This document shows, in pieces, positions 18,278 through 56,820 of a stretch of DNA of 64,000 nt (position 1 is the stretch's first letter; every line of letters begins with the position of its first letter). The notes beneath the pieces were generated by a model that did no database searches, had not been told where the DNA came from, and was given only the letters and a program-made list of their open reading frames with translations. Made by a program: the position numbers and the translations under genes. Source of the stretch: SAR202 cluster bacterium (lineage in GTDB: Bacteria; Chloroflexota; Dehalococcoidia; Lucifugimonadales; VGZR01); assembly GCA_016872515.1 (NCBI GenBank), contig VGZR01000008.1, positions 4,112-68,111 on the forward strand, written 5' to 3'.

Positions 18278-18988
18278 GTGGTGAAACAAGTTACCGGCAA
18301 GGTCACCGTTGGCGAACCCGCCCCGGAGTTCACCCTGCCTGCCCTCGAAGGCAGAACGGTGCGCCTCGCAGACTACCGCGGCAAACGGCTCATTCTGTTC
18401 ATGTGGGCTTCGTGGTGAGCCTGCAGAGGCCAGTTGCCAGGTTGGCAGCAGTTCTACCAGAAGCACAGGGCCAGCGGCATCGAACTCCTCTCGGTCGCCC
18501 TGGACGCCCATGGCGCGGGCAGGGCCGAGCCATACCTGCGGCAGGCGAAGGCCGAGTTCGTGACCGTCGTGGACGAGCAGAACCTGCTGGGAGACCTCTA
18601 CGGCTTCAAGGCCATCCCCAACGGCTTCCTGATCGACGAGCAGGGCATCCTCAGGTACGGGGAACTGGGCACCTTCGACGTCCGCAAGCCAAAGACCCGA
18701 GCGCTGCTCGACCAGTGGGTCGCGGGCAAGGGTACCGGGGTGGCGCGATCAGCGGAGGCGCCCGGCAATCGCCACGCCCAGGCCAACGCCCACTTCCGTG
18801 CTGGAGAGGCTCTCTACCGCCAGGGCAAGGTGGACGAGGCCGTCGCCGAGTGGCGCAGGGCCGTCGCCCTGGAACCCGACAACTACATCATTCGTAAGCA
18901 GATTTGGGCCGTCCAGAACCCGGACAAGTTCTACGACGGCGACGTGGACTACGACTGGCAGGACGAACAACTGAAGAAGGGGTTATAG
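18278..18988 (+). CDS. TlpA/redoxin-like thiol-disulfide oxidoreductase with C-terminal TPR, candidate selenoprotein (TGA 18416-18418 read as Sec)
   Basis: Track ORFs 18218-18418 and 18434-18988 share a frame and are separated only by the TGA. Read-through gives ...RLILFMWASW-U-ACRGQLPGWQQFYQKHRASGIELLSVALD... Start GTG 18278 lies 5 nt after AGGAGG (18267-18272). Confidence 0.7.
18433..18449 (+). promoter_or_regulatory. SECIS-like hairpin after TGA 18416
   Basis: GTTGCCA (18433-18439), loop GGT, TGGCAGC (18443-18449). Seven bp including one G-U. Starts 14 nt after the TGA. Confidence 0.5.
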
Positions 18989-30286: not shown

Positions 30287-31159
30287 ATGAAGATTGGAGC
30301 GGTGTTCCCACAGACGGAGATAGGCGCCGACGTGGGCGCGGTACGGGCCTTCGCGCAGGCGGCCGAGACGCTGGGGTTCGACCATCTGGTCGTGTATGAC
30401 CACGTGCTGGGGGCTGACTTCTCCAACAGGCCTGAGCGAACGGGGTTCTACAACTACAAGGACACTTTCCACGAGGTCTTCGTGCTGTTCGGCTACCTCA
30501 CTGGAGCGACCCAGCGTCTGGGCCTAACGACGGGTGTGCTCGTCCTCCCTCAGCGGCAGACGGCGCTGGTCGCCAAGCAAGCGGCGGAGATAGACGTGCT
30601 GAGCAAGGGCCGCTTGCGGCTGGGCATCGGCATCGGGTGGAACGACGTCGAGTTCGAGGCGCTGGGAGAGGACTTCCACAGCCGCGGGCTGCGCTCCGAA
30701 GAGCAGGTGCGGGTGCTGAAGCTGCTGTGGACGCGCGAGCTGGTGAGCTTCGAGGGCCGCTGGCACAAGATCACCGACGCGGGGATAAACCCCCTGCCCG
30801 TTCAGCGGCCCATCCCCGTCTGGTTCGGCGGGGGTGCGGAGCAGGTGCTGCAGCGCATCGCGAAGCTGGGCGACGGGTGGTTCTACCCTGGGTACACCAA
30901 GTACCCCGACGACGAATCGAGGCACCGACTCGAGCTACTGCACGAGTTCACCCGTGCCGAGGGGCGCGACCCCGCCTCCATCGGCATCGAGAAGATCGTG
31001 AAGGCACTGGAGCCTGCGAATGAACTGAAAAAGATGCGGCGGGCGTGGCAGCAGGTGGGTGCAACGCACTTCTCGGCCAGCACGATGGGGCTGGGGCTGA
31101 AGACGCCGGATGAGCACATCGCGGCGATACGGCAGTTCAAGCAGAACGTGACTGGTTGA
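30287..31159 (+). CDS. LLM-class (luciferase-like) probable F420-dependent oxidoreductase
   Basis: 290 aa. MKIGAVFPQTEIGADVGAVRAFAQAAETLGFDHLVVYDHVLG...LGIGIGWNDVEFEALG. Confidence 0.8.
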   Translation: MKIGAVFPQTEIGADVGAVRAFAQAAETLGFDHLVVYDHVLGADFSNRPERTGFYNYKDTFHEVFVLFGYLTGATQRLGLTTGVLVLPQRQTALVAKQAAEIDVLSKGRLRLGIGIGWNDVEFEALGEDFHSRGLRSEEQVRVLKLLWTRELVSFEGRWHKITDAGINPLPVQRPIPVWFGGGAEQVLQRIAKLGDGWFYPGYTKYPDDESRHRLELLHEFTRAEGRDPASIGIEKIVKALEPANELKKMRRAWQQVGATHFSASTMGLGLKTPDEHIAAIRQFKQNVTG

Positions 31160-32274
31160 GACAAGCGATGGTAGGCGAAGCCAACCTCAAACGAACGCCT
31201 CTCTACGGAACCCACGTCGGCCTGGGCGGGCGGATGGTGCCCTTCGGGGGCTGGGAGATGCCTGTCCAGTACACGAGCATCCTGGACGAGGCGCGGGCCG
31301 TGCGCATGAAGGCGGGGCTGTTCGATGTGTCGCACATGGGCCGCGTCACCATCGAGGGGGCCGGGGCGGCCACGCTCCTAAGCCGCGTGTTCAGCTCCAG
31401 CCCGACGGCGGTGAAAGTCGGCCGTGGGCGCTATGGGGTGATTTGCACACCGGAGGGCGGCATCCTCGACGACTGCATCCTCTACAGGCGAGCCGAGCAG
31501 CGGTTCCTCCTCGTGCCCAACGCATCGAACGCCGACCCAGTGGTCGAGTGGCTGCGCCGCTGGGGGAGCGGCGTCAGCGATGCCCGCATCGCAGTCATCA
31601 CCCCCTCGCTGGCGATGGTCGCGCTCCAGGGTCCTGTAGCGGCTTCCATGCTGCAAGGCCTCACATCCGCAGACCTCTCGACGCTAAGGACGTTCAGCTT
31701 CGTCGAGGAAAAAGACAAAGGTGCGGACTCCATCGTGGCGCGCACCGGCTACACCGGCGAGGATGGATTTGAGCTGATGGTGCCGAGCGGCAACGTCGCC
31801 GGGGTTTGGAAGGTGCTCATGGAACGGGGAGCGACGCCGTGCGGTTTGGGGGCCAGGGACGTGCTCCGGCTGGAGGCAGGGTTGCCGCTCCACGGCAACG
31901 ATATCGGCCTGACCACGAACCCATATGAGGCAGGGCTGGAGAGGTTCGTGGACCCGGACCGCGAAGGGTATGTCGCAGGGACGGGACTCAGGCAGATCCG
32001 AGATACCGGCCCAAGCCGCAAGCTGGTGGGGTTCAAGCTGCTGGGCCGAAGCGGCATCACTAGGCATGGCTATCCCATCATGGACGGCTCCAAGCCCATC
32101 GGCGAAGTGACCAGCGGCGGGTACTCGCCCACCCTTGACATGAACATAGGCATGGGCTATGTTCCTAAGAGCTACGCGGCCCCAGGCACCCGCTTCGCGG
32201 TGGATGTACGGGGCCGCTTGGCCGAGGCCGAGGTTGCCCCCCTCCCCTTCTATCATCGCAGGAGAGATCCGTGA
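31156..32274 (+). CDS. gcvT: Glycine cleavage system T protein (aminomethyltransferase)
   Basis: LKRTPLYGTHVGLGGRMVPFGGWEMPVQYTSILDEARAVRMKAGLFDVSHMG. Overlaps the upstream stop. The start may be ATG 31168. Confidence 0.93.
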   Translation: MRQAMVGEANLKRTPLYGTHVGLGGRMVPFGGWEMPVQYTSILDEARAVRMKAGLFDVSHMGRVTIEGAGAATLLSRVFSSSPTAVKVGRGRYGVICTPEGGILDDCILYRRAEQRFLLVPNASNADPVVEWLRRWGSGVSDARIAVITPSLAMVALQGPVAASMLQGLTSADLSTLRTFSFVEEKDKGADSIVARTGYTGEDGFELMVPSGNVAGVWKVLMERGATPCGLGARDVLRLEAGLPLHGNDIGLTTNPYEAGLERFVDPDREGYVAGTGLRQIRDTGPSRKLVGFKLLGRSGITRHGYPIMDGSKPIGEVTSGGYSPTLDMNIGMGYVPKSYAAPGTRFAVDVRGRLAEAEVAPLPFYHRRRDP

Positions 32275-32663
32275 ATCCGCCTGATCTACGCTACTCCAAA
32301 GAACACGAGTGGGTCCGCTTAGCCAGCGACGGCACTGTACTCATCGGCATCACCAGGTTCGCAGCGGAAAGCCTGGGCGACGTGGTGTTCATAGACATCC
32401 CCGAAGCCGGGAGACAGCTTGACCAGTTCAAGAAGCTGGGTGAAATCGAGTCGGTTAAAGCTGTATCTGACCTATTCTCTCCCGTCAGCGGGCAGGTGGT
32501 GGAACGAAACCAGGCGGCACTGGACAACCCCCAACTGGTGAACGACTCGCCTTACGACAAGGGCTGGCTCCTCAAGGCTTCGCTTCGCAACCAGGCGGAG
32601 TTGGACACGCTGATGACCGCCCAGCAATACGAACAGTATCTGTCCTCGGAAGGCAGCCATTAG
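32271..32663 (+). CDS. gcvH: Glycine cleavage system H protein
   Basis: YSKEHEWVRL...LGEIESVKAVSDLFSPVSG (lipoyl-Lys context), 130 aa. Confidence 0.95.
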   Translation: MNPPDLRYSKEHEWVRLASDGTVLIGITRFAAESLGDVVFIDIPEAGRQLDQFKKLGEIESVKAVSDLFSPVSGQVVERNQAALDNPQLVNDSPYDKGWLLKASLRNQAELDTLMTAQQYEQYLSSEGSH

Positions 32664-32670
32664 CCGGTAG

Positions 32671-33999
32671 ATGGAAAGTCACGGGTTCACATCCCCTTAT
32701 ACGCCCAATACCGACGCTGAACGCAGTGAGATGCTGAACGCTATCGGCGCCGGCTCGGTGGACGAACTGTTCAAAGACATACCCCAACAGCACCGCAACC
32801 CGAAGCTCAATCTGCCCCCGCCGCTCTCTGAACTGGAGCTGCGCCGCGATATAGAAGCGCTGGCCAGGATGAACGCCGTCCCGGGCGACTACGCCTGCTT
32901 CCTGGGAGGCGGCGCATACCGGCACCACGTGCCAGCGGTCGTGCGGCAGCTCGTCAGCCGCAGCGAATTCATGACCAGCTACACGCCGTACCAGCCGGAG
33001 GTGTCACAAGGCACGCTCCAGGCGCACTTCGAGTTCCAGTCGCTCATCTGCCAACTCACGGGCATGGAGGTGGCGAATGCCGGCATGTACGACGGGGCCA
33101 CATCGTTGGCGGAGGGGTGCCTCATGGCCGCCCGCGTGACGAAGCGCAACAAGGTCATGGTGCTGGACACGGTATCGCCGGCCTACCGCGCGGTCGTGAA
33201 GACGTTTGTGGAGGCGCCCCAACTCGAAGAAATCGTGGTGGCGCCTGCCCAGGCAAACCCGACGAACGAATTCGCCTGTGTGGTGGTGCAGCAGCCGAAC
33301 TTCTTCGGCTACCTGGAGGACGTCGAGGCGCTCGCCCGGCGGACCCACTCGGTGGGCGCGCTACTTGTGGTTGCGGTGGACCTGGTGTCCCTGGGGATGT
33401 TCAAGCCGCCGGGGGAGTACGGCGCCGATATCGTGGTCGGCGAGGGGCAGTCTCTGGGTGTGGCGCCTACCTTCGGCGGGCCGTATGTGGGAATCTTCGC
33501 ATGCAAGGAGCAGTACATCCGCCAGATGCCTGGGCGCATCGTCGGCAGGACGGTGGACACGCGAGGGCGCACCGGCTACGTGTTGACACTCCAGACGCGC
33601 GAGCAGCACATCCGGCGGGAACGGGCCACCTCCAACATCTGCACCTCGGTCGGCCTCATCGCCCTCATGGCGACCATCTATATGGCCGCCAACGGCAGGC
33701 GCGGGCTGCGGCACGTGGCGGAACTGTGCTACCACAAGGCGCACTACGCCGCGTCCCTCGTCTCCAAGATTCCCGGCTACTCCCTGCCCGCCCAGGGCAC
33801 GTTCTTCCGTGAGTTCGTCATACAGTGCCCCAGGCCGCCTGCCGAAATCAACAGGAAGCTGCTTGAGCGGCGCATCATCGGCGGTCTGGACGTGAGCGAC
33901 CGCTATCCCAACGGGATGCTTCTCTGCTGCACCGAGGTCAACTCGCGGGAGGAGATCGAGACGCTGGCGAAGGCGCTGGCGGAGGTTGGCAAGGCGTAA
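32671..33999 (+). CDS. gcvPA: Glycine dehydrogenase (decarboxylating) subunit 1
   Basis: 442 aa. ...FMTSYTPYQPEVSQGTLQAHFEFQSLICQLTGMEVANA... Confidence 0.93.
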   Translation: MESHGFTSPYTPNTDAERSEMLNAIGAGSVDELFKDIPQQHRNPKLNLPPPLSELELRRDIEALARMNAVPGDYACFLGGGAYRHHVPAVVRQLVSRSEFMTSYTPYQPEVSQGTLQAHFEFQSLICQLTGMEVANAGMYDGATSLAEGCLMAARVTKRNKVMVLDTVSPAYRAVVKTFVEAPQLEEIVVAPAQANPTNEFACVVVQQPNFFGYLEDVEALARRTHSVGALLVVAVDLVSLGMFKPPGEYGADIVVGEGQSLGVAPTFGGPYVGIFACKEQYIRQMPGRIVGRTVDTRGRTGYVLTLQTREQHIRRERATSNICTSVGLIALMATIYMAANGRRGLRHVAELCYHKAHYAASLVSKIPGYSLPAQGTFFREFVIQCPRPPAEINRKLLERRIIGGLDVSDRYPNGMLLCCTEVNSREEIETLAKALAEVGKA

Positions 34000-35480
34000 T
34001 GGCCACCCCGGACGTGACGATGGACGGCCGCCGAAAGCTGCTGATGGACCGGAGCGTCCCCGGCAGGATGGGCACGACGTTGCCACCGCTCGACGTGCCG
34101 GCGCAGCCGCTGCCCTCGAAGGGCCTCTTGCGGGACGACCTGCCGATGCCGGAGGTCAGCGAGAGCGAGTTGGTGCGGTATTTCAGCCAGATAAGCCAGT
34201 TCAATTTCTCCATAGACCACAACTTCTACCCGCTTGGGAGTTGCACGATGAAGTACAACCCCAAGGTGAACGACGAGATGGCGGGGATGCCAGGCATGGC
34301 TGAGATCCACCCGAACCAGCCGCCGGAGACGGTGCAGGGGGCGCTCAAGCTGATGCATCGCCTTCAGGGCTACCTTGCCGAGGCTACGGGCATGGCCGGG
34401 GCGAGCCTGGCGCCGATGGCGGGCGCGGAGGGAGAGCTGACGGGCCTGCTGATGGCCCGCGCCTATCACCTCTCGCGGGGCGACGCGAAACGCAAGAAGG
34501 TGCTGATACCGGACAGCGCACATGGGACGAATCCCGCGTCGGCGGCGATGGCTGGGTTCCAGGTGCTAGCGCTGCCGACAGACACCAACGGCAACACCGA
34601 CGCGGAGGCGCTGAAGGCATCGGTGGGCGACGACTTGGCGGCCTTCATGATCACCCAGCCAAGCACCCTCGGCCTGTTCGATGCGAATCTCCTCGAACTG
34701 GTCCACATCGTCCGCGAGGCGGGCGGCATCGTATATGGCGATGGTGCCAACTTGAACGCGCTGCTGGGGCGGGTAAAGCTGGGCGACCTGGGGTTCGATG
34801 TCGTCCACTCGAACCTGCACAAGACGTTCACGCAGCCGCACGGCGGCGGCGGCCCCGGTGCGGGCGCCGTGATGGTCAGCCGGCGGCTGCTGCCCTTCCT
34901 GCCGACGCCTTTGGTAGAGCAACGCAAGGGGCCAGACGGCAAAGAACAGTACGTCCTGGCGACCCCGCCGAAGACCATCGGCAAGATGGGCGCCTTCCAT
35001 GGGAACTTCGGGGCCTTGGTGCGCGCCTACTCCTACATCCGGACGCTGGGGGACGCCGGTGTCGCCGAGGTGAGCCGGGATGCAGTCATCAACGCGAACT
35101 ACATCCTCAGCCAGCTCAAAGGCCACTACGACCTGCCCTACGACCGCAGGTGCATGCACGAGGCGGTGTTCTCGGCGAGGAACCTGAGACACAAGCACGG
35201 CGTCTCCGCGCTGGACGTGGCGAAGCGGCTCATAGACTACGGCGTACACCCACCCACGATGTATTTCCCGCTCATCGTGGAGGAGGCGCTGATGATCGAG
35301 CCGACCGAGACCGAATCGAAGGAGACGCTTGACCAGTTCATCGCCACGATGAAGGCCATCGCCAGGGAGGCCGCCGAGAACCCGAAGCTGCTGCATGATG
35401 CGCCGCACAACACGCCCAACACCCGGCTCGACGAGGCCCGTGCGGCGCGGCAGCCGGACCTGCGGTGGCGGAAGGCCTAG
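33999..35480 (+). CDS. gcvPB: Glycine dehydrogenase (decarboxylating) subunit 2
   Basis: 493 aa. ...YPLGSCTMKYNPK...VHSNLHKTFTQPHGGGGPGAG (PLP Lys context). Confidence 0.93.
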   Translation: MATPDVTMDGRRKLLMDRSVPGRMGTTLPPLDVPAQPLPSKGLLRDDLPMPEVSESELVRYFSQISQFNFSIDHNFYPLGSCTMKYNPKVNDEMAGMPGMAEIHPNQPPETVQGALKLMHRLQGYLAEATGMAGASLAPMAGAEGELTGLLMARAYHLSRGDAKRKKVLIPDSAHGTNPASAAMAGFQVLALPTDTNGNTDAEALKASVGDDLAAFMITQPSTLGLFDANLLELVHIVREAGGIVYGDGANLNALLGRVKLGDLGFDVVHSNLHKTFTQPHGGGGPGAGAVMVSRRLLPFLPTPLVEQRKGPDGKEQYVLATPPKTIGKMGAFHGNFGALVRAYSYIRTLGDAGVAEVSRDAVINANYILSQLKGHYDLPYDRRCMHEAVFSARNLRHKHGVSALDVAKRLIDYGVHPPTMYFPLIVEEALMIEPTETESKETLDQFIATMKAIAREAAENPKLLHDAPHNTPNTRLDEARAARQPDLRWRKA

Positions 35481-35484
35481 ACCC

Positions 35485-35493
35485 TGGTATAAT
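35485..35493 (+). promoter_or_regulatory. Extended -10 element upstream of the peroxiredoxin gene
   Basis: TGgTATAAT, 5 nt after the gcvPB stop and 26 nt before ATG 35519. AAGGAG RBS at 35505-35510. Confidence 0.4.
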
Positions 35494-35518
35494 CTCCACC
35501 CTGAAAGGAGACCCAGCT

Positions 35519-35983
35519 ATGGTTGATGTTGGACAAGCGGCTCTAGACTTCACCGTGATGGACCACAACCAGCAGCAGGTGACGCTGAGCCAGTTCAAGG
35601 GCAAGAAAAATGTCATCCTCTCTTGCCACGTTTTCTCGTTCACCAGTGGGTGAACAGACCAGGTCTCCTCGTTCCGCCAGAATCTCAAGGTGTTCGAGGA
35701 GAAAGATACCCAGGTCTTGGGTATCAGCACTGACGCAAGGGCAACACAGACCGCCTACGCGACCTCGTTGGGCGGCGTGCCGTTCCCCATCCTGACGGAC
35801 TTCCACCCCCACGGGAAGATCGCCCAGGCGTACGGCATCTTCAACGACGCCAACGGCGCCTTCCGCCGGGCCGTCATCGTCATTGATAAGCATGGCATCG
35901 TACGCTTCAAGAAGACGTACACGACGGCGGCCGACCTGAAGGTGGCCGACATCATGGCCGAGGTGGACAAGCTGCCGAAGTAG
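35519..35983 (+). CDS. Peroxiredoxin (AhpC/TSA family), candidate selenoprotein (TGA 35651-35653 read as Sec45)
   Basis: Track ORFs 35465-35653 and 35690-35983 share a frame. Read-through gives MVDVGQAALDFTVMDHNQQQVTLSQFKGKKNVILSCHVFSFTSG-U-TDQVSSFRQNLKVFEEKDTQVLGISTD... The TGA sits at the Cys of the T-x-x-C peroxidatic motif. Confidence 0.75.
35665..35701 (+). promoter_or_regulatory. Stem-loop after TGA 35651 (possible SECIS)
   Basis: CTCCTCG (35665-35671) pairs with CGAGGAG (35695-35701), starting 11 nt after the TGA. An inner CGCC/GGTG helix closes a 10-nt loop. Less canonical than the two hairpins near 18.2-18.4 kb. Confidence 0.35.
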
Positions 35984-36011
35984 CCGTGATCCGCCGGGAA
36001 AGGTAATCGAA

Positions 36012-36057
36012 AAGGCGCACCGGTGACCCCTGGATCGGAACGGTGCGCCTTAGTTTT
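36012..36057 (+). terminator. Intrinsic terminator after the peroxiredoxin gene
   Basis: AAGGCGCACCG (36012-36022) / CGGTGCGCCTT (36041-36051), an 11-bp stem followed by AGTTTT. Confidence 0.6.
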
Positions 36058-36079
36058 AGGACAAGGTGAACGGACCCGC

Positions 36080-36946
36080 ATGAGCGGCATGACCGAGGGG
36101 AAACCAACGGAGCACGTGTTCCACGAGAGCAACTACGCCCTGTTCGTGGACCGCAGGGGGCGGCAGTACCTTGTCCGCCTCGAAGCGGGCAAGGCCTTCA
36201 GTTCGCACCTCGGGGGCCTCTTGCACGCGGATGTCATCGGCAAGGAGCCAGGCGCCCGACTGAAGACGAACCGGGGGCACCGGCTGCTGGCGGTCAGGCC
36301 GACGATGGCAGACTTCACACGGCTCATGCCGCGGACGGCGACGGTTATCTATCCCAAGGACTTGGGCGCCATCCTGGTGCTGGGCGACATCTTCCCCGGG
36401 GCCAGGGTGTTGGAAGCAGGGGCCGGCTCAGGGGCGCTCACCATCGCGCTGGCCAGGGCCGTGGGAGAACGCGGCTCGGTGGTCAGTTACGACGTGCGAG
36501 CCGACATGCTGGAGCGGGCGGGCGGCAATCTGGCGGCGGCCTTACCGGGCTGGTCCAACGTCACCTTCAAGCAGGGCGATGTCTGCGCGGCCATCGAGGA
36601 GACTGGGTTGGACCGCATCGTTCTCGACCTTCCGGAGCCCTGGCGCGCCGTACCGCACATCGAGGGCGCCCTTGCCCGCGGCGGCATCCTATTGAGCTAT
36701 CTACCCACGATTCTGCAGGTCCATGAGCTGTGCAGAACGTTGCGAGACCAGCGCACCTTCGACCTACTCGAAACGATGGAGGTGCTGGTGCGGCCATGGG
36801 AGGTGGGCAACCGCAGCGTCCGGCCCGGGCACCGGATGGTAGCGCACACTGGGTTCATAACCACGGCCCGGCGGTGCGAGGCGAAGCCCCCCGACGAGGG
36901 CGAGGACAACGAGCGGGCCGACGTTCCCGAAGAAGACCCGGCCTGA
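36080..36946 (+). CDS. trmI: tRNA (adenine58-N1)-methyltransferase
   Basis: ...YLVRLEAGKAFSSHLGGLLHADVIG...RTATVIYPKDLGAIL...VLEAGAGSGALTIALARAVG...DLPEPW. Confidence 0.85.
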   Translation: MSGMTEGKPTEHVFHESNYALFVDRRGRQYLVRLEAGKAFSSHLGGLLHADVIGKEPGARLKTNRGHRLLAVRPTMADFTRLMPRTATVIYPKDLGAILVLGDIFPGARVLEAGAGSGALTIALARAVGERGSVVSYDVRADMLERAGGNLAAALPGWSNVTFKQGDVCAAIEETGLDRIVLDLPEPWRAVPHIEGALARGGILLSYLPTILQVHELCRTLRDQRTFDLLETMEVLVRPWEVGNRSVRPGHRMVAHTGFITTARRCEAKPPDEGEDNERADVPEEDPA

Positions 36947-36967
36947 TCCTCCCCTAGCCACTGACAC

Positions 36968-38221
36968 TCACCTGCCTGATGCCTCTTCATCCTCTTGCCA
37001 GAAGGAGTCCGGCTGCCAGGCAGCGTGGGGGTATCCGCCTTCCAAGAGCGGGGTGTGCGCAGGGTCCAGAAGTGGTAGCGGCAGCGAGGCGGTCAAATCT
37101 TGCGCAAGCGGGCCATCCTGGGAGAGAAGGTGAGCCGCATCGCCAACGCCTGTCGCCTTCTCTTGGATCAAGACCTTGAAGTCGCCGAGGCCACCGGGTT
37201 TGGCCAGAGAGCGCATCCCCGCCAAGTTCGCCTCGCGCTCCTGCGCAGGTAGGGCTTCGGAGCGCATCCGCGCGATGAGCGCGTCGAGTCCAAGGCGTCG
37301 TAGGAAGTCGGCTTGGGAGAGGAGCGCCAGAGGGCGGAGTCCATACCGCTCACCCTCCGACATCACCGCTGCGAAATCCACGTGTGCGGTGATGTCCTGG
37401 CGGCCGATCCTCTGGTAGGGACTGCCGGCGGAGACATGGTGAAAGTAGGTCTGAAGGGTACCCGATGGCCGCAGAGACGCGTTGTGCTTTTGCGCTTCGT
37501 ACCCGTAGTCTATGGTAAGCACGAAGCCGCGCGCCAAGGCCTGCGAAACCTCGTTCAGCCACGGGCCGATGGCCAAGTTGATCTCGCCACGGAATCCTTC
37601 CAGCAGGTTTGGCGGAAGAGAATCCAAGACTCCTGAGAGGTCGGAAGACGAAGGCATATCCAGGGTCTCGGTGAGCCGTCCCTGACCATCAAGTCTGACA
37701 TAGACCTCGTATGGTCTGCCGCCTTTCACATGAAACCTGTGCACCGGAAAAGCATCGAGGAGTTCGTTGGAGAGCACGCATCCGGTCAGCCCTCTGAAAG
37801 GCACTCTCGGCGAAACCACGCCATCCGAGAGACTTCGCCGGTCTCCACGCATCGCCACATCTACAGACACGTAGCGGAAGTCTCTTTCGGCAAACCCGAG
37901 CCTTTTCAGGTAGTCGAGGATGTCGTGGGCCAGGAGGCCATCCCCTGCGCCGAGCTCTACCACCCAGAAGGGCGATGGCTTCCCCAGCGATTCTCGCATC
38001 CGCGCCAGCAGCACAGCCAAGAGAGCGCCGAACACCGGGTGTGCGCCGGGGCTGGTGAAGAAGTCTCCCTGTGCTCCTATCTCTGGAGCCTTCGCGTAGT
38101 ACCCTCCGGTAGGGTGGTAAAGGGCCAGTTTCATGAACTCGGCGAACGTTATTTTTCCGTGGCGGCGTATGCGCGCCCTTATCTCGGCCTCGGCAGGATT
38201 TTGGTCTGGTTTAGAGGTCAT
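36968..38221 (-). CDS. MidA/NDUFAF7-family SAM-dependent methyltransferase (DUF185)
   Basis: ...GKITFAEFMKLALYHPTGGYYA...GDFFTSPGAHPVFG...VVELGAGDGLLAHDIL. Start uncertain (ATG 38221 or 38287); neither has a clear RBS. Confidence 0.75.
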   Translation of the reverse strand: MTSKPDQNPAEAEIRARIRRHGKITFAEFMKLALYHPTGGYYAKAPEIGAQGDFFTSPGAHPVFGALLAVLLARMRESLGKPSPFWVVELGAGDGLLAHDILDYLKRLGFAERDFRYVSVDVAMRGDRRSLSDGVVSPRVPFRGLTGCVLSNELLDAFPVHRFHVKGGRPYEVYVRLDGQGRLTETLDMPSSSDLSGVLDSLPPNLLEGFRGEINLAIGPWLNEVSQALARGFVLTIDYGYEAQKHNASLRPSGTLQTYFHHVSAGSPYQRIGRQDITAHVDFAAVMSEGERYGLRPLALLSQADFLRRLGLDALIARMRSEALPAQEREANLAGMRSLAKPGGLGDFKVLIQEKATGVGDAAHLLSQDGPLAQDLTASLPLPLLDPAHTPLLEGGYPHAAWQPDSFWQEDEEASGR

Positions 38222-38311
38222 GGACAGTGTTAAGTAGACAGATAAGGGCGCCCCCGCTTGTCGGGACGCCCTTACACCGATCTGCATCGGATTGGATAAA
38301 ACGGGTACTAC

Positions 38312-38500
38312 CTAACGCGCTGCCTGCCGCGCCCGTTTTGCCTGCGGGTTCTCACGGTCCCAGCCGGAACTCTGCATCGAATTGCGGAACTCCCCATGTT
38401 GTCCGCAATTTTTGCACACGCCTATGCTGACCGGTCCGTTAGGACTGTCTATCAGCCAATGGTGCTGACACTGCCTTGTGGTCTTCTGCCTCGTTGTCAC
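38312..38500 (-). CDS. Small hypothetical protein with CxHH...CxxC zinc-ribbon-like motif
   Basis: 62 aa. GTG 38500 lies 6 nt after AGGAGGGGG. MTTRQKTTRQCQHHWLIDSPNGPVSIGVCKNCGQHGEFRN... Confidence 0.55.
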   Translation of the reverse strand: MTTRQKTTRQCQHHWLIDSPNGPVSIGVCKNCGQHGEFRNSMQSSGWDRENPQAKRARQAAR

Positions 38501-38590
38501 GGCCTGCCCCCTCCTGACTGACCGCTCTGCGTCTTCCTAGTACCCCTCGAAACCCACGGTATCCAAGCAGAATACGGGTTGCTCTGCGAC

Positions 38591-39733
38591 TTACCCTCGC
38601 TTCTCGATCGGCACATACGGAAGGTCCATCGGCCCTTCATAGGCCAACATGGGCCGGAGCAGGATATTGTTTTCTGCTTGCTCCATGACTTGGGCCGTCC
38701 AGCCCGGAATCCGGCCCATGGCGAAGATACAGATGAACAGGTCTGTCGGGATTCCGAGAAGGTGGTAGATGGCGCCTGACCAGAAGTCCACGTTCTGGCA
38801 GATACCTCGCTTGGCGTATGGTTCCATCGCGTTGCTCACGGCCTGCAAGATAGCAAACCACTCTGGGTGGCCCTTGCGCTCTCCCAGCCGCCTGGCGTCT
38901 TCGCGGAGGTGGACGGCTCTCGGGTCTGTGGTCTTATAGACGCGGTGGCCGAAGCCGACGATGCGCCCACCGCTCTTGAGGCGGTTCTGGACGTAGGCCG
39001 CCGCGTTCTCGGCCGAGCCTATCTCCTCGGCCATGTGCATGACACTCTCGGCGGCGCCGCCATGTGCAGGGCCTTTCAACACCGCAACGCCCGTGGTGAT
39101 GGCGCAGTGGAGGTCGGCCTCGGTGGACGCTGCCACCCGTGCGGCGAATGCGGAGGCGTTGATGCCATGCTCGGCATGGAGTACGAAGTCTTTGTCCATC
39201 AACGACGCGTCTTCGGGATGGGGTACCTGGCCGGTGTGCATATACAAGAAGTTCCCGGCGTGGCCGAGCTCTGGGTTCGGTTCAACCGGCTTCTTGCCCG
39301 CACAGATCCGGGCATGGGTCGCCACGATAGTCGGCGCGGCGGCTGTGAGCCTGATGCCCTTGCGGAGAATCGCCTCCCGGGAGTTATCCCGGATATTCGA
39401 ATCGGTCGTGGAGAGGGCTGAAATGGCGGTGCGCAGCACATCCATGGGATGCGCGTTCTTGGTGATGCGGATAACCTCCGACACCTCTGGGGGGAGCTTC
39501 CTGCTGGCTTTGAGCTCCCCATCTATCTGGTCGAGTTGGGCTCTCGTAGGGAGCACACCATAGAGAAGGAGGTAAACAATCTCTTCAAACGTGGAGTTCT
39601 CCGCGAGGTCGTGGATGTTGTAGCCACGGTAAAGGAGCTTTCCCTCTCTGCCGTCTATGAAGCTGGTCCGGGTGCGGTCGATGTAAACGTCACGCAGCCC
39701 TCTGTGTAGCTGAATCTTCTCTGCTTCGACCAT
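38591..39733 (-). CDS. Citrate synthase family enzyme (citrate/2-methylcitrate synthase)
   Basis: ATG 39733 after GAAGGAG. ...SFIDGREGKLLYRGYNIHDL...HAEHGINASAFAARV...GFGHRVYKTTDPR. Confidence 0.9.
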   Translation of the reverse strand: MVEAEKIQLHRGLRDVYIDRTRTSFIDGREGKLLYRGYNIHDLAENSTFEEIVYLLLYGVLPTRAQLDQIDGELKASRKLPPEVSEVIRITKNAHPMDVLRTAISALSTTDSNIRDNSREAILRKGIRLTAAAPTIVATHARICAGKKPVEPNPELGHAGNFLYMHTGQVPHPEDASLMDKDFVLHAEHGINASAFAARVAASTEADLHCAITTGVAVLKGPAHGGAAESVMHMAEEIGSAENAAAYVQNRLKSGGRIVGFGHRVYKTTDPRAVHLREDARRLGERKGHPEWFAILQAVSNAMEPYAKRGICQNVDFWSGAIYHLLGIPTDLFICIFAMGRIPGWTAQVMEQAENNILLRPMLAYEGPMDLPYVPIEKRG

Positions 39734-39967
39734 TGGCTCCTTCCTAACGGCGAGCGCTCGTAGGACGTCCACAAAAGGGGAAGGTAGTAAAAGGCAAAGC
39801 TCAGCCAGGGATCAGGTGGATATCCGACCCAAGAACCCATTAGCCTGCTTGCGCCTCGTACACAAGCGGGGGAATTCTAGCACCGCAGCTTTGGGGTGTC
39901 AAGAAACCGGAACTGGCACAGGCGGAGACGCAGCCGTCCACGCGGTAGTTCGCGTGGTCACAAGCGT

Positions 39968-39996
39968 TTGACGCATGCCGACGGGGTAAGTACAAT
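39968..39996 (+). promoter_or_regulatory. Putative promoter of rex
   Basis: TTGACG (39968-39973) - 17 nt - TACAAT (39991-39996), 50 nt upstream of ATG 40047. Confidence 0.45.
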
Positions 39997-40046
39997 GGCT
40001 CGACCGTCAATCTGAGTTTTTCGCCGGAATAACTATCAAAAACCCG

Positions 40047-40739
40047 ATGAGTTCTCCACAAGTCCCAGAAGTCGTCGTGCTCAGGCTGCCCCTGTATGTG
40101 CGCGCCCTTAGCCAACTCCAGGCTGAGGGCACCGACGTGGTCAGCTCGCATCAACTCGGCAAGCGGCTCCAGATGACCCCTGCACAGATCCGAAAGGACC
40201 TCAGCTACTTCGGAAGGTTTGGAAAGCAAGGCCGTGGGTATAAGGTCCAGTTCCTGTTGCAGGAGCTAGGCGAGATCCTTGGGCTCGACATACGTTGGAA
40301 CACCTGCCTCATCGGCGTAGGCCGCCTTGGGCGCGCCATCATCAACTATCCTGGCTTTGCGCCTGAAGGCTTCAACATCCTGGCCGCCTTCGACAGCGAC
40401 CCAGGCCAGGTCGGCACCCCGATACGGAACCTTAGCGTCCAGCCGATGAAGGACCTGGAAAAGACGGTTACGGACAGAGAGATCGTCATCGCCATCGTGG
40501 CGGTGCCTGCGGCCCAGGCACAGATGGTGATTGACCAGCTCGTGAAGTGCCGTATCCGCGGCATCCTCAACTATGCGCCGGTCGCCCCGCAGGTACCGAT
40601 GGACGTGGTGCTCCGGAACATAGACCCCGTCCTCTCACTCCAGTCTATGACCTACTACCTTCGCGATCAAACGGAAGCTGAACAGGCATCCGTCAAGACG
40701 ACGGGGCGAGGCAAAGGACCCCAACCCGCCAGGAGGTAA
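40047..40739 (+). CDS. rex: Redox-sensing transcriptional repressor Rex
   Basis: VPEVVVLRLPLYVRALSQLQAEGTDVVSSHQLGKRLQMTPAQIRKDLSYFGRFGKQGRGY...LIGVGRLGRAI (Rossmann). Confidence 0.92.
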   Translation: MSSPQVPEVVVLRLPLYVRALSQLQAEGTDVVSSHQLGKRLQMTPAQIRKDLSYFGRFGKQGRGYKVQFLLQELGEILGLDIRWNTCLIGVGRLGRAIINYPGFAPEGFNILAAFDSDPGQVGTPIRNLSVQPMKDLEKTVTDREIVIAIVAVPAAQAQMVIDQLVKCRIRGILNYAPVAPQVPMDVVLRNIDPVLSLQSMTYYLRDQTEAEQASVKTTGRGKGPQPARR

Positions 40740-54969: not shown

Positions 54970-56820
54970 ATGACCAGCAAGACCGAAAAGACGAACGTAC
55001 CTGCGCAGCCGACCGCCGCGACCGCCGTGGCGGTTGCCAAGGCACGCGGCGCGCAGAAACCTGCTCCGCCAGCCCCCAAGCCGCTGGACATCCCCCAAGC
55101 CATCGCGGTCGGCGAGTTGGCCAAGGTGATGAAGGTCACCCCCATCGAAGTCATCAAACAACTCATGCGCCAGGGCCACATGTTCTCGGTCAACGAGATC
55201 ATCAACCACGACGTGGCCGCTGAGATTGCCACGGACTTCGGCTTCACCGTTTCCCAGACGGCTGAAAAGGCCGAGTCTGCCCGGCTGACGGTCTCTACCG
55301 AAGGCGAAGACCCCGCGCAGCTTCAGCCACGCTCGCCGGTGGTTACCATCCTTGGCCATGTTGACCATGGCAAGACCACCTTGCTCGATGCCATCCGGAA
55401 CACCCGGGTGGCCGCAGGCGAGGCCGGCGGCATCACTCAGCACATCGGCGCCTACCAGGTCGAGTACAAAGGCAACCGCATCACCTTCCTGGACACCCCC
55501 GGCCATGCGGCCTTCACTGCCATGCGGGCCAGGGGCGCCAAGGTCACCGACATCGCGGTCTTGGTCGTGGCCGCCGACGACGGCATCATGCCCCAGACCA
55601 TCGAGGCCATAGACCACGCCAAAGCCGCTGGCGTGCCCATTGTCGTCGCCATCAACAAGATGGACAAACCCGGCGCCAACCCGGACAAGGTGAAGCAACA
55701 GCTTTCGGAGCACGCCCTCGTCGTCGAGGAGTGGGGCGGCGATGTCATCGCCGTACCGGTGTCGGCCTTGAAGGGTCAGGGCATCCCCGACCTCCTGGAG
55801 AACCTCCTGGTGGTCGCGGAAGTCGCGGAGCTTAAGGCCAACCCGAACCGTAGCGCCAAAGGCATCGTCGTCGAGGCCCGCATAGACAAAAGCCGCGGCC
55901 CCGTGGCGACCGTCCTCGTCCAGACCGGCACGCTCCGAGTCGGCGACTACCTGGCAGCCGGACCGCACAAGGGCCGCGTCAAGGCCATGCTCGACGACAG
56001 TGCCAAGCGGATCAAAGAAGCAGGCCCCTCCGCTCCTGTGGAGATACTGGGCATGGAGACGCTGCCAGAGGCCGGCGAAAAGTTTGAGACAGTCGCGGAC
56101 GAGAAGACCGCGCGGCAGATGACCGAGGCCAAAGCTCAGGAACGGCAGGCCCGCAGCGGGGCCGGGGTGACCCTGGAAGATGTGTACACCCGGATCGAGG
56201 CGGGCGAGGTCAAAGCCCTCAACCTCATCCTGAAGACCGACGTCCAAGGCAGCGTCGAGGCTATCCGTAAGGCGCTGGAGCGCCTGAACACCGAGCGCAC
56301 GCGGGTGAACGTCATCCATGCCGCCGCAGGGAGCATCACCGAGAGCGACGTGTTGTTGGCGGTGGCTTCCAAAGCAATCATCGTAGGTTTCAACAGCCAG
56401 CCCGAGCCTGGAGCGCGCACCCTGGGCAACCAGGTCAGCGTGAACATCCGCCACTACAACATCATCTACTCCCTGGTTGACGACATCGAGCGCGCCCTTA
56501 AGGGCCTGCTCGAGCCGGTGTACAAGGACATCATCGAGGGCCAAGCCACCATCAGGGCTGTGTTCTCGCTGGGCCGCGGCACCACGGTCGCCGGGTTCTA
56601 CGTCAACAGCGGCAAGATTGCCCGCGACGCGGAGATACGCGTGTTCAGGGGCGGCAAGCAGGTCTTCGCCGGCCAGATCGGGAGCCTGAAGCACTTCAAG
56701 GACGACGTCCGCGAGGTCAACACAGGCCTAGAGGGCGGTATCACCTTAGAAGGTTTCAAGGACTACCAGACCGGCGACGTACTGGAAGCCCATCGCCGCC
56801 AGCAGGTCGGGGTCGGCTAA
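54970..56820 (+). CDS. infB: Translation initiation factor IF-2
   Basis: ...[20 protein letters not shown]...DTPGHAAF...NKMD..., 616 aa. Confidence 0.96.

What the first reader, a model, noticed from the sequence alone, without database searches (positions are those of the whole stretch)
35519..35983. Peroxiredoxin with in-frame TGA at the peroxidatic cysteine position (T-S-G-U)
Track ORFs 35465-35653 and 35690-35983 are in the same frame, separated by TGA 35651-35653. From ATG 35519 (AAGGAG RBS, TGgTATAAT upstream) the read-through protein is MVDVGQAALDFTVMDHNQQQVTLSQFKGKKNVILSCHVFSFTSG-U-TDQVSSFRQNLKVFEEKDTQVLGISTD...RAVIVIDKHGIVRF... This is a 154-aa AhpC/TSA-type fold in which the TGA replaces the Cys of the universal T-x-x-C motif. 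Sec-containing peroxiredoxins are known in some bacteria, so this is a plausible third Sec site and independent support for Sec decoding in this genome. The downstream structure (7-bp stem 35665-35671/35695-35701 plus an inner helix) is less canonical than at the other two sites.
Basis: partly seen in the sequence, partly recalled or inferred. Interest (0 to 1): 0.7.

Follow-up and report, generated by a model that had tools for sequence, protein, structure and literature searches.

The report
Selenocysteine peroxiredoxin gene, mis-annotated as truncated
This is a real gene for a small peroxide-destroying enzyme whose catalytic cysteine is replaced by selenocysteine, encoded by an in-frame TGA; this kind of enzyme is already known, but this version is shared by hundreds of Chloroflexota species and public databases routinely cut it in two.

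Summary
ATG 35519 to TAG 35983 is one 154-codon frame with a single TGA (35651-35653).

- **Protein.** The product is an AhpE-type 1-Cys peroxiredoxin (Pfam AhpC-TSA E 8e-30; M. tuberculosis AhpE E 2e-31; predicted fold TM 0.93). The TGA falls exactly on the peroxidatic Cys45.
- **Comparison.** In 80 species-representative Dehalococcoidia/Chloroflexota genomes, all 79 scored copies, three of them second paralogues, have TGA at this codon. Both flanks are equally conserved (57% and 60%). One 95%-identical sibling has TGC.
- **RNA.** A hairpin directly after the TGA shows compensatory changes at synonymous sites. It is far more stable than synonymous recodings of the same sequence.
- **Genetic code.** TGA ends 16 of 60 other genes called in the window, so the code is standard.
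- **Gaps.** selA/B/C/D were not found in the DNA I could reach. Sec decoding is documented for the class only from the literature.
- **Verdict.** This is a new member of the known TxxU selenoprotein peroxiredoxin kind.

Four features stand out:
- The "universal" active-site Pro is Ile/Val/Leu in every Sec form.
- A Prx6-like His is invariant at U-8.
- The gene follows gcvT-H-PA-PB in most relatives.
- A second, fdhF-like CAGGUnCUG hairpin lies 60 nt after the UGA.

The parts
31156..35480 (+). gcvT (31156-32274), gcvH (32271-32663), gcvPA (32671-33999) and gcvPB (33999-35480): the glycine cleavage operon immediately upstream. This is conserved context, not part of the gene.
   Evidence: All four pass NCBIfam equivalog or subfamily cut-offs. 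gcvPB lies upstream on the same strand in 54-57 of 76 sources (75 loci plus the window), with a median gap of 70 nt.
35485..35493 (+). TGGTATAAT, an extended -10-like sequence in the 38-nt gap after gcvPB.
   Evidence: Read from the sequence. The sigma-70 scan found no -35/-10 pair. The motif is not conserved in relatives, so its function is doubtful.
35505..35510 (+). AAGGAG ribosome-binding site, 8 nt before the ATG.
   Evidence: Read from the sequence.
35519..35983 (+). Coding sequence of the 154-residue AhpE-type peroxiredoxin with Sec at residue 45. Key residues are T42, U45, R117, H37, V38 and C36.
   Evidence: Pfam AhpC-TSA 103.8 bits. M. tuberculosis AhpE E 2e-31 over residues 1-132. 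AlphaFold pLDDT 95.7, and Foldseek TM 0.90-0.93 to AhpE. The start matches the MVDVGQ starts of homologues.
35651..35653 (+). UGA read as selenocysteine (the peroxidatic residue).
   Evidence: TGA at this codon in all 79 scored copies. TGC in the 95%-identical L081. Aligns with Cys45 of AhpE.
35664..35702 (+). Hairpin 1, at the SECIS position. Lower stem 35664-35671 with 35695-35702; inner helix 35675-35678 with 35689-35692; loop 35679-35688.
   Evidence: Lower stem is 91% paired across the family. It has 41 two-sided changes against 8.7 in shuffles, reached by 0 of 500 shuffles. Synonymous-recoding z is -3.03 for the family and -3.63 for the window. The loop lies 22-32 nt from the UGA in 79 of 79.
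35705..35725 (+). Hairpin 2: GAUACCCA-GGUCU-UGGGUAUC, encoded by D-T-Q-V-L-G-I. Its loop resembles that of E. coli fdhF.
   Evidence: Pair 58:72 is A-U in 43 sequences and G-C in 29. Pair 63:67 is G-C in 63 and A-U in 6. Recoding z is -2.66 for the family and -3.3 for the window, with controls near 0. The hairpin is absent from three Cys-type genes with the same peptide motif.
36012..36060 (+). Terminator-like hairpin (11-bp stem 36012-36022 with 36041-36051) followed by AGUUUUAGG. It lies between the peroxiredoxin gene and the trmI-like gene.
   Evidence: strand folding. The shuffle z-score is only -0.98 and the pattern scan missed it because of its 18-nt loop, so the evidence is weak.

Best explanation
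The gene 35519-35983 encodes a 154-residue, AhpE-type, 1-'Cys' peroxiredoxin whose peroxidatic residue is selenocysteine.

**Recoding (inferred).** The ribosome reaches UGA 35651-35653. A structured mRNA segment directly downstream recruits SelB carrying Sec-tRNA(Sec), and Sec is inserted instead of termination. The segment is hairpin 1 at 35664-35702, probably helped by hairpin 2 at 35705-35725.

**Catalysis (inferred).** The selenolate of U45 is activated by T42 and R117. It attacks a hydroperoxide and becomes a selenenic acid. An external reductant, not identified here, then recycles it. The family has no conserved resolving Cys.

**What is shown:**
- the frame, the fold and the family;
- the alignment of UGA with the catalytic Cys;
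- conservation of the UGA across about 80 species;
- selection for both hairpins;
- normal use of TGA as a stop elsewhere in the window.

**What is inferred:** actual Sec insertion, the presence of selA/B/C/D in this genome, the peroxidase activity and the reductant.
For: **Family and active site**
- Pfam AhpC-TSA E 7.8e-30, 103.8 bits against a cut-off of 26.
- M. tuberculosis AhpE E 2e-31, residues 1-132; U45 pairs with Cys45, T42 with Thr42, R117 with Arg116.
- AlphaFold pLDDT 95.7. The top 12 Foldseek PDB hits are all AhpE, TM 0.88-0.93.

**Comparative**
- The genome scan found 586 or more related loci. The best 80 are all Dehalococcoidia, Chloroflexota or SAR202.
- All 79 scored copies have TGA at this codon.
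- Identity to the window protein is 57% before and 60% after the TGA, and no copy has another internal stop.
- L081 is 95% identical in DNA to L005 but has TGC.
- The closest relatives (85%, 73% and 72% identical) also have TGA.
- In the protein database, close homologues are either 93-103-residue fragments that start after the TGA, or full-length with W at that site.

**RNA**
- Lower-stem covariation: 0 of 500 shuffles reach the observed value.
- A structure signal appears only in the sliding windows that begin at or just after the TGA.
- Hairpin 1 z is -3.03 and hairpin 2 z is -2.66 against synonymous recodings.

**Genetic code and lineage**
- TGA ends 16 of 60 called genes.
- gcvP, nadE and other neighbours match full-length models without interruption.
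- A second Sec-type site lies at 18416.
- Dehalococcoidia MAGs rank among the most selenoprotein-rich bacteria (PMC13326102).
- Dehalogenimonas has selC, a Sec-specific elongation factor and Sec-synthesis genes, plus a Sec-containing selenophosphate synthase (PMC4918011).
Against: - No tRNA-Sec, selA, selB or selD was found in the 64-kb window. None was found in about 6 kb to the left and 9 kb to the right of it, or in 1.6 Mb of related loci. The machinery is therefore unverified for this genome.
- Hairpin 1 fits the published bSECIS consensus only partly. The window's loop is 10 nt, against 3-9 in the consensus. [quoted passage not shown]
- The window's inner helix is weak: z -0.66, and 32% of recodings are as stable.
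- The Pro of the PxxxTxxC/U motif is missing.
- There is no experimental evidence of selenium incorporation.
Confidence: 0.9

Rival explanations
1. Pseudogene: a peroxiredoxin gene inactivated by a nonsense mutation at the catalytic Cys codon (TGC or TGT changed to TGA).
For: Gene callers treat it this way and produce 44-residue and 97-residue fragments. GenBank MCH8184838.1 is a 99-residue fragment of a relative.
Against: The same TGA occurs in all 79 scored copies, three of them second paralogues, from species-representative genomes that are only 50-63% identical in protein. Both halves are equally conserved and no copy has another lesion. Synonymous sites are selected to form hairpins right after the TGA.
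Confidence: 0.01
2. TGA is read as a standard amino acid (Trp or Gly, as in genetic codes 4 or 25, or Cys by near-cognate read-through) and no selenium is involved.
For: Several database entries translate the codon as W. No Sec machinery was found in the accessible DNA.
Against: - TGA ends 16 of 60 genes in the window.
- Long conserved genes contain no in-frame TGA.
- The TGA sits only at a redox Cys position and alternates with TGC.
- A conserved hairpin follows the TGA. General reassignment would not need one.
- The host class is documented as Sec-rich (PMC13326102).
Confidence: 0.04
3. The gene is a genuine Sec gene in the family, but this particular copy is poorly decoded because its inner SECIS helix has decayed. 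It would then yield mostly the 44-residue termination product.
For: The window's inner helix is 4 bp with one G-U pair and a 10-nt loop. Its z is -0.66, and 32% of synonymous recodings are as stable. The family mean for the same region is -1.65.
Against: Hairpin 1 as a whole is highly non-random in the window copy: z -3.63, with 0 of 150 recodings as stable. The same holds for hairpin 2: z -3.3. The 85%-identical relative keeps the same architecture, with G-U changed to G-C. The coding sequence is intact.
Confidence: 0.05

Closest known systems
Sec-containing peroxiredoxin selenoprotein family, 'Prx (TxxU)'. PrxU of Eubacterium acidaminophilum (Sohling et al. 2001) is the founding member, listed in PMC13188914. 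It was the second most abundant known selenoprotein family in the Sargasso Sea (43 genes, PMC1088965) and was found in 78 organisms in PMC5029168.
   Same: It has the AhpC/TSA fold, with Sec replacing the peroxidatic Cys in a T-x-x-U motif. The UGA is followed by a coding-region hairpin. Sec/Cys pairs exist with homologues.
   Different: - It scores only 59 bits on NCBIfam peroxi_PrxU (cut-off 270, profile length 233), so it is not that equivalog.
- It belongs to the short, roughly 153-residue AhpE subfamily.
- The review describes a conserved PxxxTxxU motif. Here the Pro is Ile, Val or Leu in every Sec form.
- I could not check whether BSepDB already lists these genes.
Mycobacterium tuberculosis AhpE (Rv2238c), a 1-Cys peroxiredoxin (PDB 1xxu, 1xvw, 4x0x, 5c04).
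   Same: Length matches (154 against 153 residues). The sequence match is E 2e-31, at 36-37% identity. The predicted fold gives TM 0.93 and rmsd 1.6-1.7 A. The catalytic residue is at the same position, 45, and Thr42 and Arg116/117 are kept. There is no family-wide resolving Cys.
   Different: - Sec replaces Cys45.
- Pro38 is replaced by Val (Ile or Leu in relatives).
- Phe37 is replaced by His. The best PDB match is in fact the engineered F37H mutant, 5c04.
- The mycothiol/mycoredoxin reductant described for AhpE (my own knowledge) is an actinobacterial system and was not examined here.
Prx6-type 1-Cys peroxiredoxins (human PrxVI, PfPrx6).
   Same: A His lies eight residues before the peroxidatic residue, and there is no resolving Cys. 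The His is H39 against C47 in Prx6 and H37 against U45 here. [quoted passage not shown] AhpE-type enzymes normally have Tyr or Phe there (bioRxiv 10.1101/2025.02.13.638076).
   Different: Overall sequence and fold are closer to AhpE. The protein lacks the C-terminal extension of Prx6 enzymes. The role of the His next to a selenenic acid was not tested.
E. coli fdhF-type bacterial SECIS and the published bSECIS consensus (PMC13188914, Fig. 2A).
   Same: Hairpin 1 starts about 10 nt after the UGA. Its apical loop lies 22-32 nt from the UGA (consensus 16-37), and its free energy is well below -7.5 kcal/mol. Hairpin 2 carries a CA-GGUn-CUG top, like the CA-GGUC-UG of fdhF (my own memory of the fdhF sequence).
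   Different: Hairpin 1 usually has no G in the first two loop positions (19 of 79 do). The hairpin that does carry the G-U loop lies 60 nt from the UGA, outside the consensus spacing. I know of no tandem arrangement in the bacterial SECIS literature that I read.
Eukaryotic Sec redefinition elements (SRE): hairpins next to some Sec-UGA codons that assist a distant SECIS
   Same: The layout is similar: a structured element directly after the UGA, plus a second element further downstream.
   Different: It belongs to a different domain of life with different machinery (SBP2/eEFSec and a 3'-UTR SECIS). This is an analogy only.

Membership tests
Peroxiredoxin (Pfam PF00578 AhpC-TSA) | Scores above the Pfam gathering threshold over the whole domain | tested here: met
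   103.8 bits against a cut-off of 26; residues 4-130 cover profile positions 1-123 of 124.
Peroxiredoxin (Pfam PF00578 AhpC-TSA) | Peroxidatic Cys/Sec in a T/S-x-x-C/U motif at the start of helix 2, plus a conserved Arg | tested here: met
   T42-S-G-U45 aligns with Thr42/Cys45 of AhpE, and R117 with Arg116. T at U-3 in 77 of 77 and R117 invariant. The model places helix 47-54 directly after residue 45.
Peroxiredoxin (Pfam PF00578 AhpC-TSA) | Conserved Pro of the PxxxTxxC/U active-site motif | tested here: not met
   The window has V38. Position U-7 is I, V or L in 77 of 77 genomic copies and in all 8 W-translated database entries. All 27 Cys homologues parsed have Pro, apart from the recent TGC sibling P0002, which has Ile.
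Peroxiredoxin (Pfam PF00578 AhpC-TSA) | Hydroperoxide reductase activity | not testable with these tools
   Needs an enzyme assay.
AhpE subfamily of peroxiredoxins | Closest in sequence and structure to M. tuberculosis AhpE; about 150 residues | tested here: met
   The top seven PDB sequence hits are all AhpE, at E 2e-31 to 3e-29; the next hit is at 2.5e-15. The top 12 Foldseek hits are all AhpE, TM 0.88-0.93.
AhpE subfamily of peroxiredoxins | 1-Cys type: no conserved resolving Cys | tested here: met
   No second Cys column is conserved in alignments A1 and A2. The window's own sub-clade does keep a Cys at U-9, whose role is unknown.
AhpE subfamily of peroxiredoxins | Tyr or Phe at the position eight residues before the peroxidatic residue (per bioRxiv 10.1101/2025.02.13.638076) | tested here: not met
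   His in 77 of 77 copies, as in Prx6-type enzymes.
Bacterial selenoprotein (Sec-UGA gene) | In-frame UGA aligned with Cys of homologues (Sec/Cys pair) | tested here: met
   U45 against Cys in 27 or more homologues. TGA against TGC between 95%-identical genes.
Bacterial selenoprotein (Sec-UGA gene) | UGA and both flanks conserved in orthologues of other organisms | tested here: met
   TGA in all 79 scored copies. Identity to the window protein is 57% upstream and 60% downstream of the TGA.
Bacterial selenoprotein (Sec-UGA gene) | bSECIS: hairpin directly downstream, loop 16-37 nt from the UGA, free energy of -7.5 kcal/mol or lower | tested here: met
   Loop at 22-32 nt in 79 of 79; mean free energy -18.5 kcal/mol. 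Covariation and recoding tests support it.
Bacterial selenoprotein (Sec-UGA gene) | bSECIS: 3-9-nt apical loop with G in its first two positions | tested here: inconclusive
   The window's loop is 10 nt with G at position 2. Only 19 of 79 minimum-energy folds have the G. Hairpin 2 has the GGU loop, but 60 nt from the UGA.
Bacterial selenoprotein (Sec-UGA gene) | selA, selB, selC and selD present in the same genome | not testable with these tools
   They are absent from the window, from about 15 kb of extra flank and from the related loci. The literature documents Sec use in the class (PMC4918011, PMC13326102).
Bacterial selenoprotein (Sec-UGA gene) | Selenium found in the protein | not testable with these tools
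   Needs 75Se labelling or mass spectrometry.
PrxU equivalog (NCBIfam NF040737) | Scores above the curated cut-off | tested here: not met
   59.2 bits against a cut-off of 270. No NCBIfam model reaches its cut-off for this protein.

The most novel reading that the evidence does not exclude
The recoding signal may be bipartite.
- **Hairpin 1.** This lineage-specific 39-nt hairpin occupies the usual SECIS position but mostly lacks the loop G that SelB recognises.
- **Hairpin 2.** Directly after it comes an fdhF-like CA-GGUn-CUG hairpin that is the real SelB-binding site. It comes within reach of the UGA only while hairpin 1 stays folded. Removing the 39 nt of hairpin 1 would put G64/U65 at +25/+26, close to G23/U24 of fdhF.

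A weaker, separate idea: the enzyme is the fifth gene of the glycine cleavage operon, and dihydrolipoyl-GcvH recycles it.
Probability: 0.2. Interest if true: 0.6.

Novelty: new member of a known kind. Interest (0 to 1): 0.4.

Why it matters
Selenocysteine peroxiredoxins have been known since 2001, so the headline is not new. Three practical points follow from this work.

1. **Annotation.** This AhpE-type Sec clade occurs in at least several hundred species-level Chloroflexota genomes, including SAR202. Every database entry I saw is wrong: either a fragment of roughly 60-100 residues or a Trp mistranslation. No NCBIfam model reaches its cut-off for it. A dedicated model would correct many records and raise selenoprotein counts for an abundant aquatic lineage.
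2. **Enzymology.** Every Sec form has lost the 'universal' active-site Pro, and every one has a Prx6-like His. This natural experiment bears on why Sec is used and how the selenenic acid is handled.
3. **Recoding.** The two selected hairpins give a testable case for how far bacterial SECIS architecture can depart from the fdhF model. BSepDB reports that about 13% of bacterial selenoprotein genes lack a canonical SECIS.

Tried and rejected
**Searches that found nothing**
- **Sec machinery.**
  - ARAGORN and Rfam on the window found only tRNA-Ala.
  - ARAGORN on all loci found no tRNA-Sec.
  - tblastn with an E. coli SelD sequence recalled from memory found nothing in the window or in 1.6 Mb of loci.
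  - The large GTPase at 54970-56820 is IF-2, not SelB.
  - Walking about 9 kb to the right (L084) and about 6 kb to the left (L087) gave no sel genes.
  - One look-up failed because my chosen start codon was wrong.
- **Rfam at E up to 10** on 35600-35760 gave only chance hits.
- **The sigma-70 scan** found no promoter. The extended -10 is not conserved.
- **Third Sec site.** Two scans for in-frame TGA with coding signal on both sides found only 18416 and 35651.
- **Site 18416** has no orthologues in the fetched loci, so its conservation could not be tested.
- **Literature.** A search for SAR202 plus selenoprotein gave no papers. A search for 'PrxU' gave nothing useful.

**Approaches that did not work**
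- Fixed-column covariation for the inner helix of hairpin 1 is not possible, because its register differs between lineages. I used per-sequence folds and synonymous recoding instead.
- My first motif regex and one reading frame were wrong, and I redid them.

**Explanations rejected**
- Pseudogene, reassigned genetic code, sequencing error (three independent contigs carry the same TGA), and membership of the PrxU family.
Full report
**1.

The window sequence and its translation show one reading frame from ATG 35519 to TAG 35981-35983. A single TGA at 35651-35653 interrupts it. The ORF listing reports the two halves as 35465-35653 and 35690-35983 in the same frame. AAGGAG lies at 35505-35510 and TGGTATAAT at 35485-35493.

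The read-through product is 154 residues and carries ...FSFTSG-U-TDQVSSFR... Public gene calls on three independent contigs with the identical gene split it into 44-residue and 97-residue pieces.

**2. What the protein is**

With Cys substituted for the stop, the product matches Pfam AhpC-TSA end to end (103.8 bits, cut-off 26).

- Against all PDB sequences, the seven best hits are all M. tuberculosis AhpE (Rv2238c), at E 2e-31 to 3e-29. The next hit is at 2.5e-15.
- In that alignment, residue 45 pairs with Cys45 of AhpE, T42 with Thr42 and R117 with Arg116. That Cys45 is the peroxidatic residue of AhpE is my own knowledge of that enzyme.
- An AlphaFold model built on alignment A1 is confident (pLDDT 95.7, pTM 0.90).
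- Its 12 best structural matches in the PDB are all AhpE chains (TM 0.88-0.93, rmsd 1.6-2.0 A).
- The NCBIfam model for the classical selenoprotein PrxU gives only 59 bits against a cut-off of 270. No NCBIfam model reaches its cut-off.

The protein is therefore an AhpE-type peroxiredoxin, not a PrxU-type one.

**3. Is the TGA a Sec codon?**

The comparative evidence is strong.

*Protein database.* The search returned two kinds of close homologue. One kind is 93-103-residue fragments that begin just after the TGA position. The other is full-length proteins with Trp at that position, meaning the TGA was translated under another genetic code.

*Species-representative genomes.* A scan of these genomes found at least 586 related loci. 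The best 80 are all Dehalococcoidia, Chloroflexota or SAR202 MAGs.
- All 79 scored copies, three of them second paralogues in the same loci, have TGA at exactly this codon.
- The 44 residues before the TGA average 57% identity to the window protein, and the 60 residues after it average 60%.
- No copy has another internal stop.
- The three closest metagenomic relatives (85%, 73% and 72% identical) also carry TGA.

*Sec/Cys pair.* The only full-length Cys form among the close relatives is P0002 (locus L081). Its DNA is 95% identical to the TGA gene of L005 and reads TGC where L005 reads TGA. This is a Sec/Cys pair that differs by one base.

*Genetic code.* TGA ends 16 of the 60 genes I called in the window. 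Long conserved neighbours (gcvT, H, PA and PB; nadE) match their models without interruption. General reassignment of TGA is therefore excluded.

**4. RNA structure after the TGA**

*Hairpin 1.* Every family member folds into a two-tier hairpin that starts 10-13 nt after the UGA. The apical loop lies 22-32 nt from the UGA.
- The lower stem (alignment columns 14-21 with 45-52; window 35664-35671 with 35695-35702) is paired in 91% of cells.
- It has 41 two-sided changes against 8.7 in shuffles. None of 500 shuffles reaches the observed values, and all slid registers score much lower.
- Most of the compensatory changes lie at third codon positions (GUC/GUU with GAG/GAA; UCC/UCU with GAG/GAA).

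*Synonymous recoding test.* I compared each sequence with recodings that keep the protein and the family's codon usage.
- Only the sliding windows that begin at or just after the TGA stand out: mean z -2.3 to -2.5, and 66-71% of sequences below -2. Other sliding windows average +0.6 to -1.2.
- With exact bounds, hairpin 1 gives a family mean z of -3.03. The window's own copy gives -3.63, and none of 150 recodings is as stable.
- The inner helix differs in sequence and register between lineages but is usually present (mean z -1.65; 92% below zero).
- In the window copy the inner helix is weak: 4 bp, a 10-nt loop and z -0.66.

*Fit to the published bSECIS consensus* (PMC13188914, Fig. 2A). Hairpin 1 meets the spacing and energy rules. 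A G in the first two loop positions appears in only 19 of 79 minimum-energy folds. The window has the G at position 2, but its loop is one nucleotide too long.

**5.

Columns 55-75 (window 35705-35725, GAUACCCA-GGUCU-UGGGUAUC) are encoded by D-T-Q-V-L-G-I. They form a 7-8-bp stem.
- Pair 58:72 is A-U in 43 distinct sequences and G-C in 29. A Thr-to-Ala change (ACC to GCC) goes together with a synonymous Gly change (GGU to GGC).
- Pair 63:67 is G-C in 63 sequences and A-U in 6.
- Recoding z is -2.66 for the family and -3.3 for the window. Eleven control segments of 21 nt average between -0.28 and +0.19.
- Three Cys-type genes that encode the same or a similar peptide motif lack both hairpins (-1.8 to -2.4 against -10.6 kcal/mol). 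They come from low-GC genomes, so this control is weak.

The top of hairpin 2 reads CAGGUnCUG in 65 of 79 copies. It resembles two known Sec hairpins. One follows the window's other Sec site (UUGCCA-GGU-UGGCAG, loop at +25 to +27). The other is the E. coli fdhF apical loop, from my memory of that sequence. Its loop, however, is 60 nt from the UGA.

A distant Sec lineage (P0047/L096, TGA confirmed) has a single canonical hairpin with a GGC loop at +27 to +29 and no hairpin 2.

Which hairpin binds SelB cannot be decided here. I record the bipartite model as a hypothesis.

**6. Features of the clade**

- **Lost Pro.** The Pro of the PxxxTxxC/U motif, seven residues before the catalytic residue, is Ile, Val or Leu in all 77 genomic copies examined. 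The same holds for all eight W-translated database entries. All 27 Cys homologues I could parse keep Pro, apart from the recent TGC sibling P0002, which has Ile.
- **Invariant His.** The residue eight positions before U is always His. This is the position of the Prx6-specific active-site His. AhpE-type enzymes normally have Tyr or Phe there (bioRxiv 10.1101/2025.02.13.638076).
- **No family-wide resolving Cys.** The window's own sub-clade keeps a Cys at U-9.

**7. Genomic context**

The order is gcvT-gcvH-gcvPA-gcvPB, then prx, then a TrmI-like methyltransferase. On the opposite strand follow a Methyltransf_28 gene and citrate synthase, and then rex.
- This order is conserved among the 76 sources compared (75 loci plus the window): the trmI-like gene lies downstream in 73 and gcvPB upstream in 54-57.
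- The gap between gcvPB and prx has a median of 70 nt.
- Co-transcription with the gcv operon is plausible but untested.
- The whole block is syntenic, so adjacency alone does not show a functional link.
- A terminator-like hairpin follows the gene at 36012-36060, with weak statistics.

**8. Sec machinery**

I found no selA, selB, selC or selD in the window, in about 15 kb of extra flank, or in 1.6 Mb of related loci. The rest of the genome is out of reach.

Indirect support:
- A second in-frame TGA at 18416 sits in a ResA-like protein with WASW-U-AC. It is the best match to NCBI's model of the WAxxUGC selenoprotein family (164 bits, below the cut-off of 300). A canonical GGU-loop hairpin follows it.
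- Two Dehalococcoidia MAGs are among the ten most selenoprotein-rich bacteria in BSepDB (PMC13326102).
- The cultured Dehalogenimonas alkenigignens has selC, a Sec-specific elongation factor and Sec-synthesis genes, plus a Sec-containing selenophosphate synthase (PMC4918011).

**9. Comparison with what is known**

Sec-containing peroxiredoxins with a TxxU motif are a long-established family.
- PrxU dates from 2001.
- 43 genes were found in the Sargasso Sea (PMC1088965).
- Five independent Cys-to-Sec conversions were inferred in PMC1794560.
- 78 organisms carried one in PMC5029168.

The present gene is a new, mis-annotated member of that kind, in the AhpE subfamily. I found no paper that links AhpE-type enzymes or SAR202 with Sec. 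I could not query BSepDB, which may already list these genes.

**10. Verdict**

Interest is moderate to low for the headline claim. The lost Pro, the invariant His, the gcv-operon position, the scale of the mis-annotation and the tandem hairpins raise it somewhat.

Noticed in passing
window 18416-18418 (ORF about 18284-18988, + strand): A second in-frame TGA lies in a ResA/TlpA-like thiol-disulfide oxidoreductase with the motif WASW-U-AC and a TPR-like tail. It is the best match to NCBIfam NF041054, 'ResA-like WAxxUGC motif-containing protein' (164 bits, below the cut-off of 300). A hairpin UUGCCA-GGU-UGGCAG follows it, with its loop at +25 to +27.
   Followed up: partly
window 35705-35725: A second selected hairpin (CA-GGUn-CUG top) lies directly after the SECIS-position hairpin. 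It shows covariation between a Thr/Ala codon and a synonymous Gly codon. Its role is unknown.
   Followed up: partly
L081:521-979 compared with L005:5391-5846: Two genes are 95% identical in DNA. One has TGC (Cys) and the other TGA at the catalytic codon, and the first base of hairpin 1 also differs (G to C). This is either a very recent Sec/Cys switch or an assembly variant.
   Followed up: partly
L010:11376, L038:10895, L041:10823: A second paralogue lies 0.7-1.2 kb downstream of the first. It also has TGA at the catalytic codon, with the motif FTDG-U-RDQILSF.
   Followed up: no
window 35624-35626 (Cys36); also L090, L091, L092: The window copy and its three closest relatives have Cys at U-9 (LSCH[VI]FSFTSG-U). 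The rest of the family has Phe, Trp or Val there. It could be a resolving residue, but this was not tested.
   Followed up: no
protein database entries P0001-P0056; GenBank MCH8184838.1: Every public entry for this clade is wrong. Each is either a C-terminal fragment of roughly 60-100 residues or a full-length protein with Trp at the Sec position. JGI names include 'alkyl hydroperoxide reductase subunit AhpC' and 'mycoredoxin-dependent peroxiredoxin'.
   Followed up: yes
window 31156-40739 and 76 sources (75 loci plus the window): The block gcvT-H-PA-PB, prx, trmI-like, Methyltransf_28 (opposite strand), citrate synthase (opposite strand) and rex is syntenic across Dehalococcoidia.
   Followed up: partly
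window 4907-6940 (+): This gene encodes a CCG-domain plus 4Fe-4S protein (GlpC/HdrD-like Fe-S oxidoreductase). The family has known Sec members, but I saw no in-frame TGA here.
   Followed up: no
protein P0046: A homologue reads ...FHALANTRWCTAQ... If its W is a mistranslated TGA, this would be a different arrangement (T-R-U-C). Its DNA was not fetched.
   Followed up: no
L096:301-885: A distant Sec form (44% identity) has a signal-peptide-like N-terminus. It has TGA at the catalytic codon, Val in place of the motif Pro, and a single canonical hairpin with a GGC loop.
   Followed up: partly
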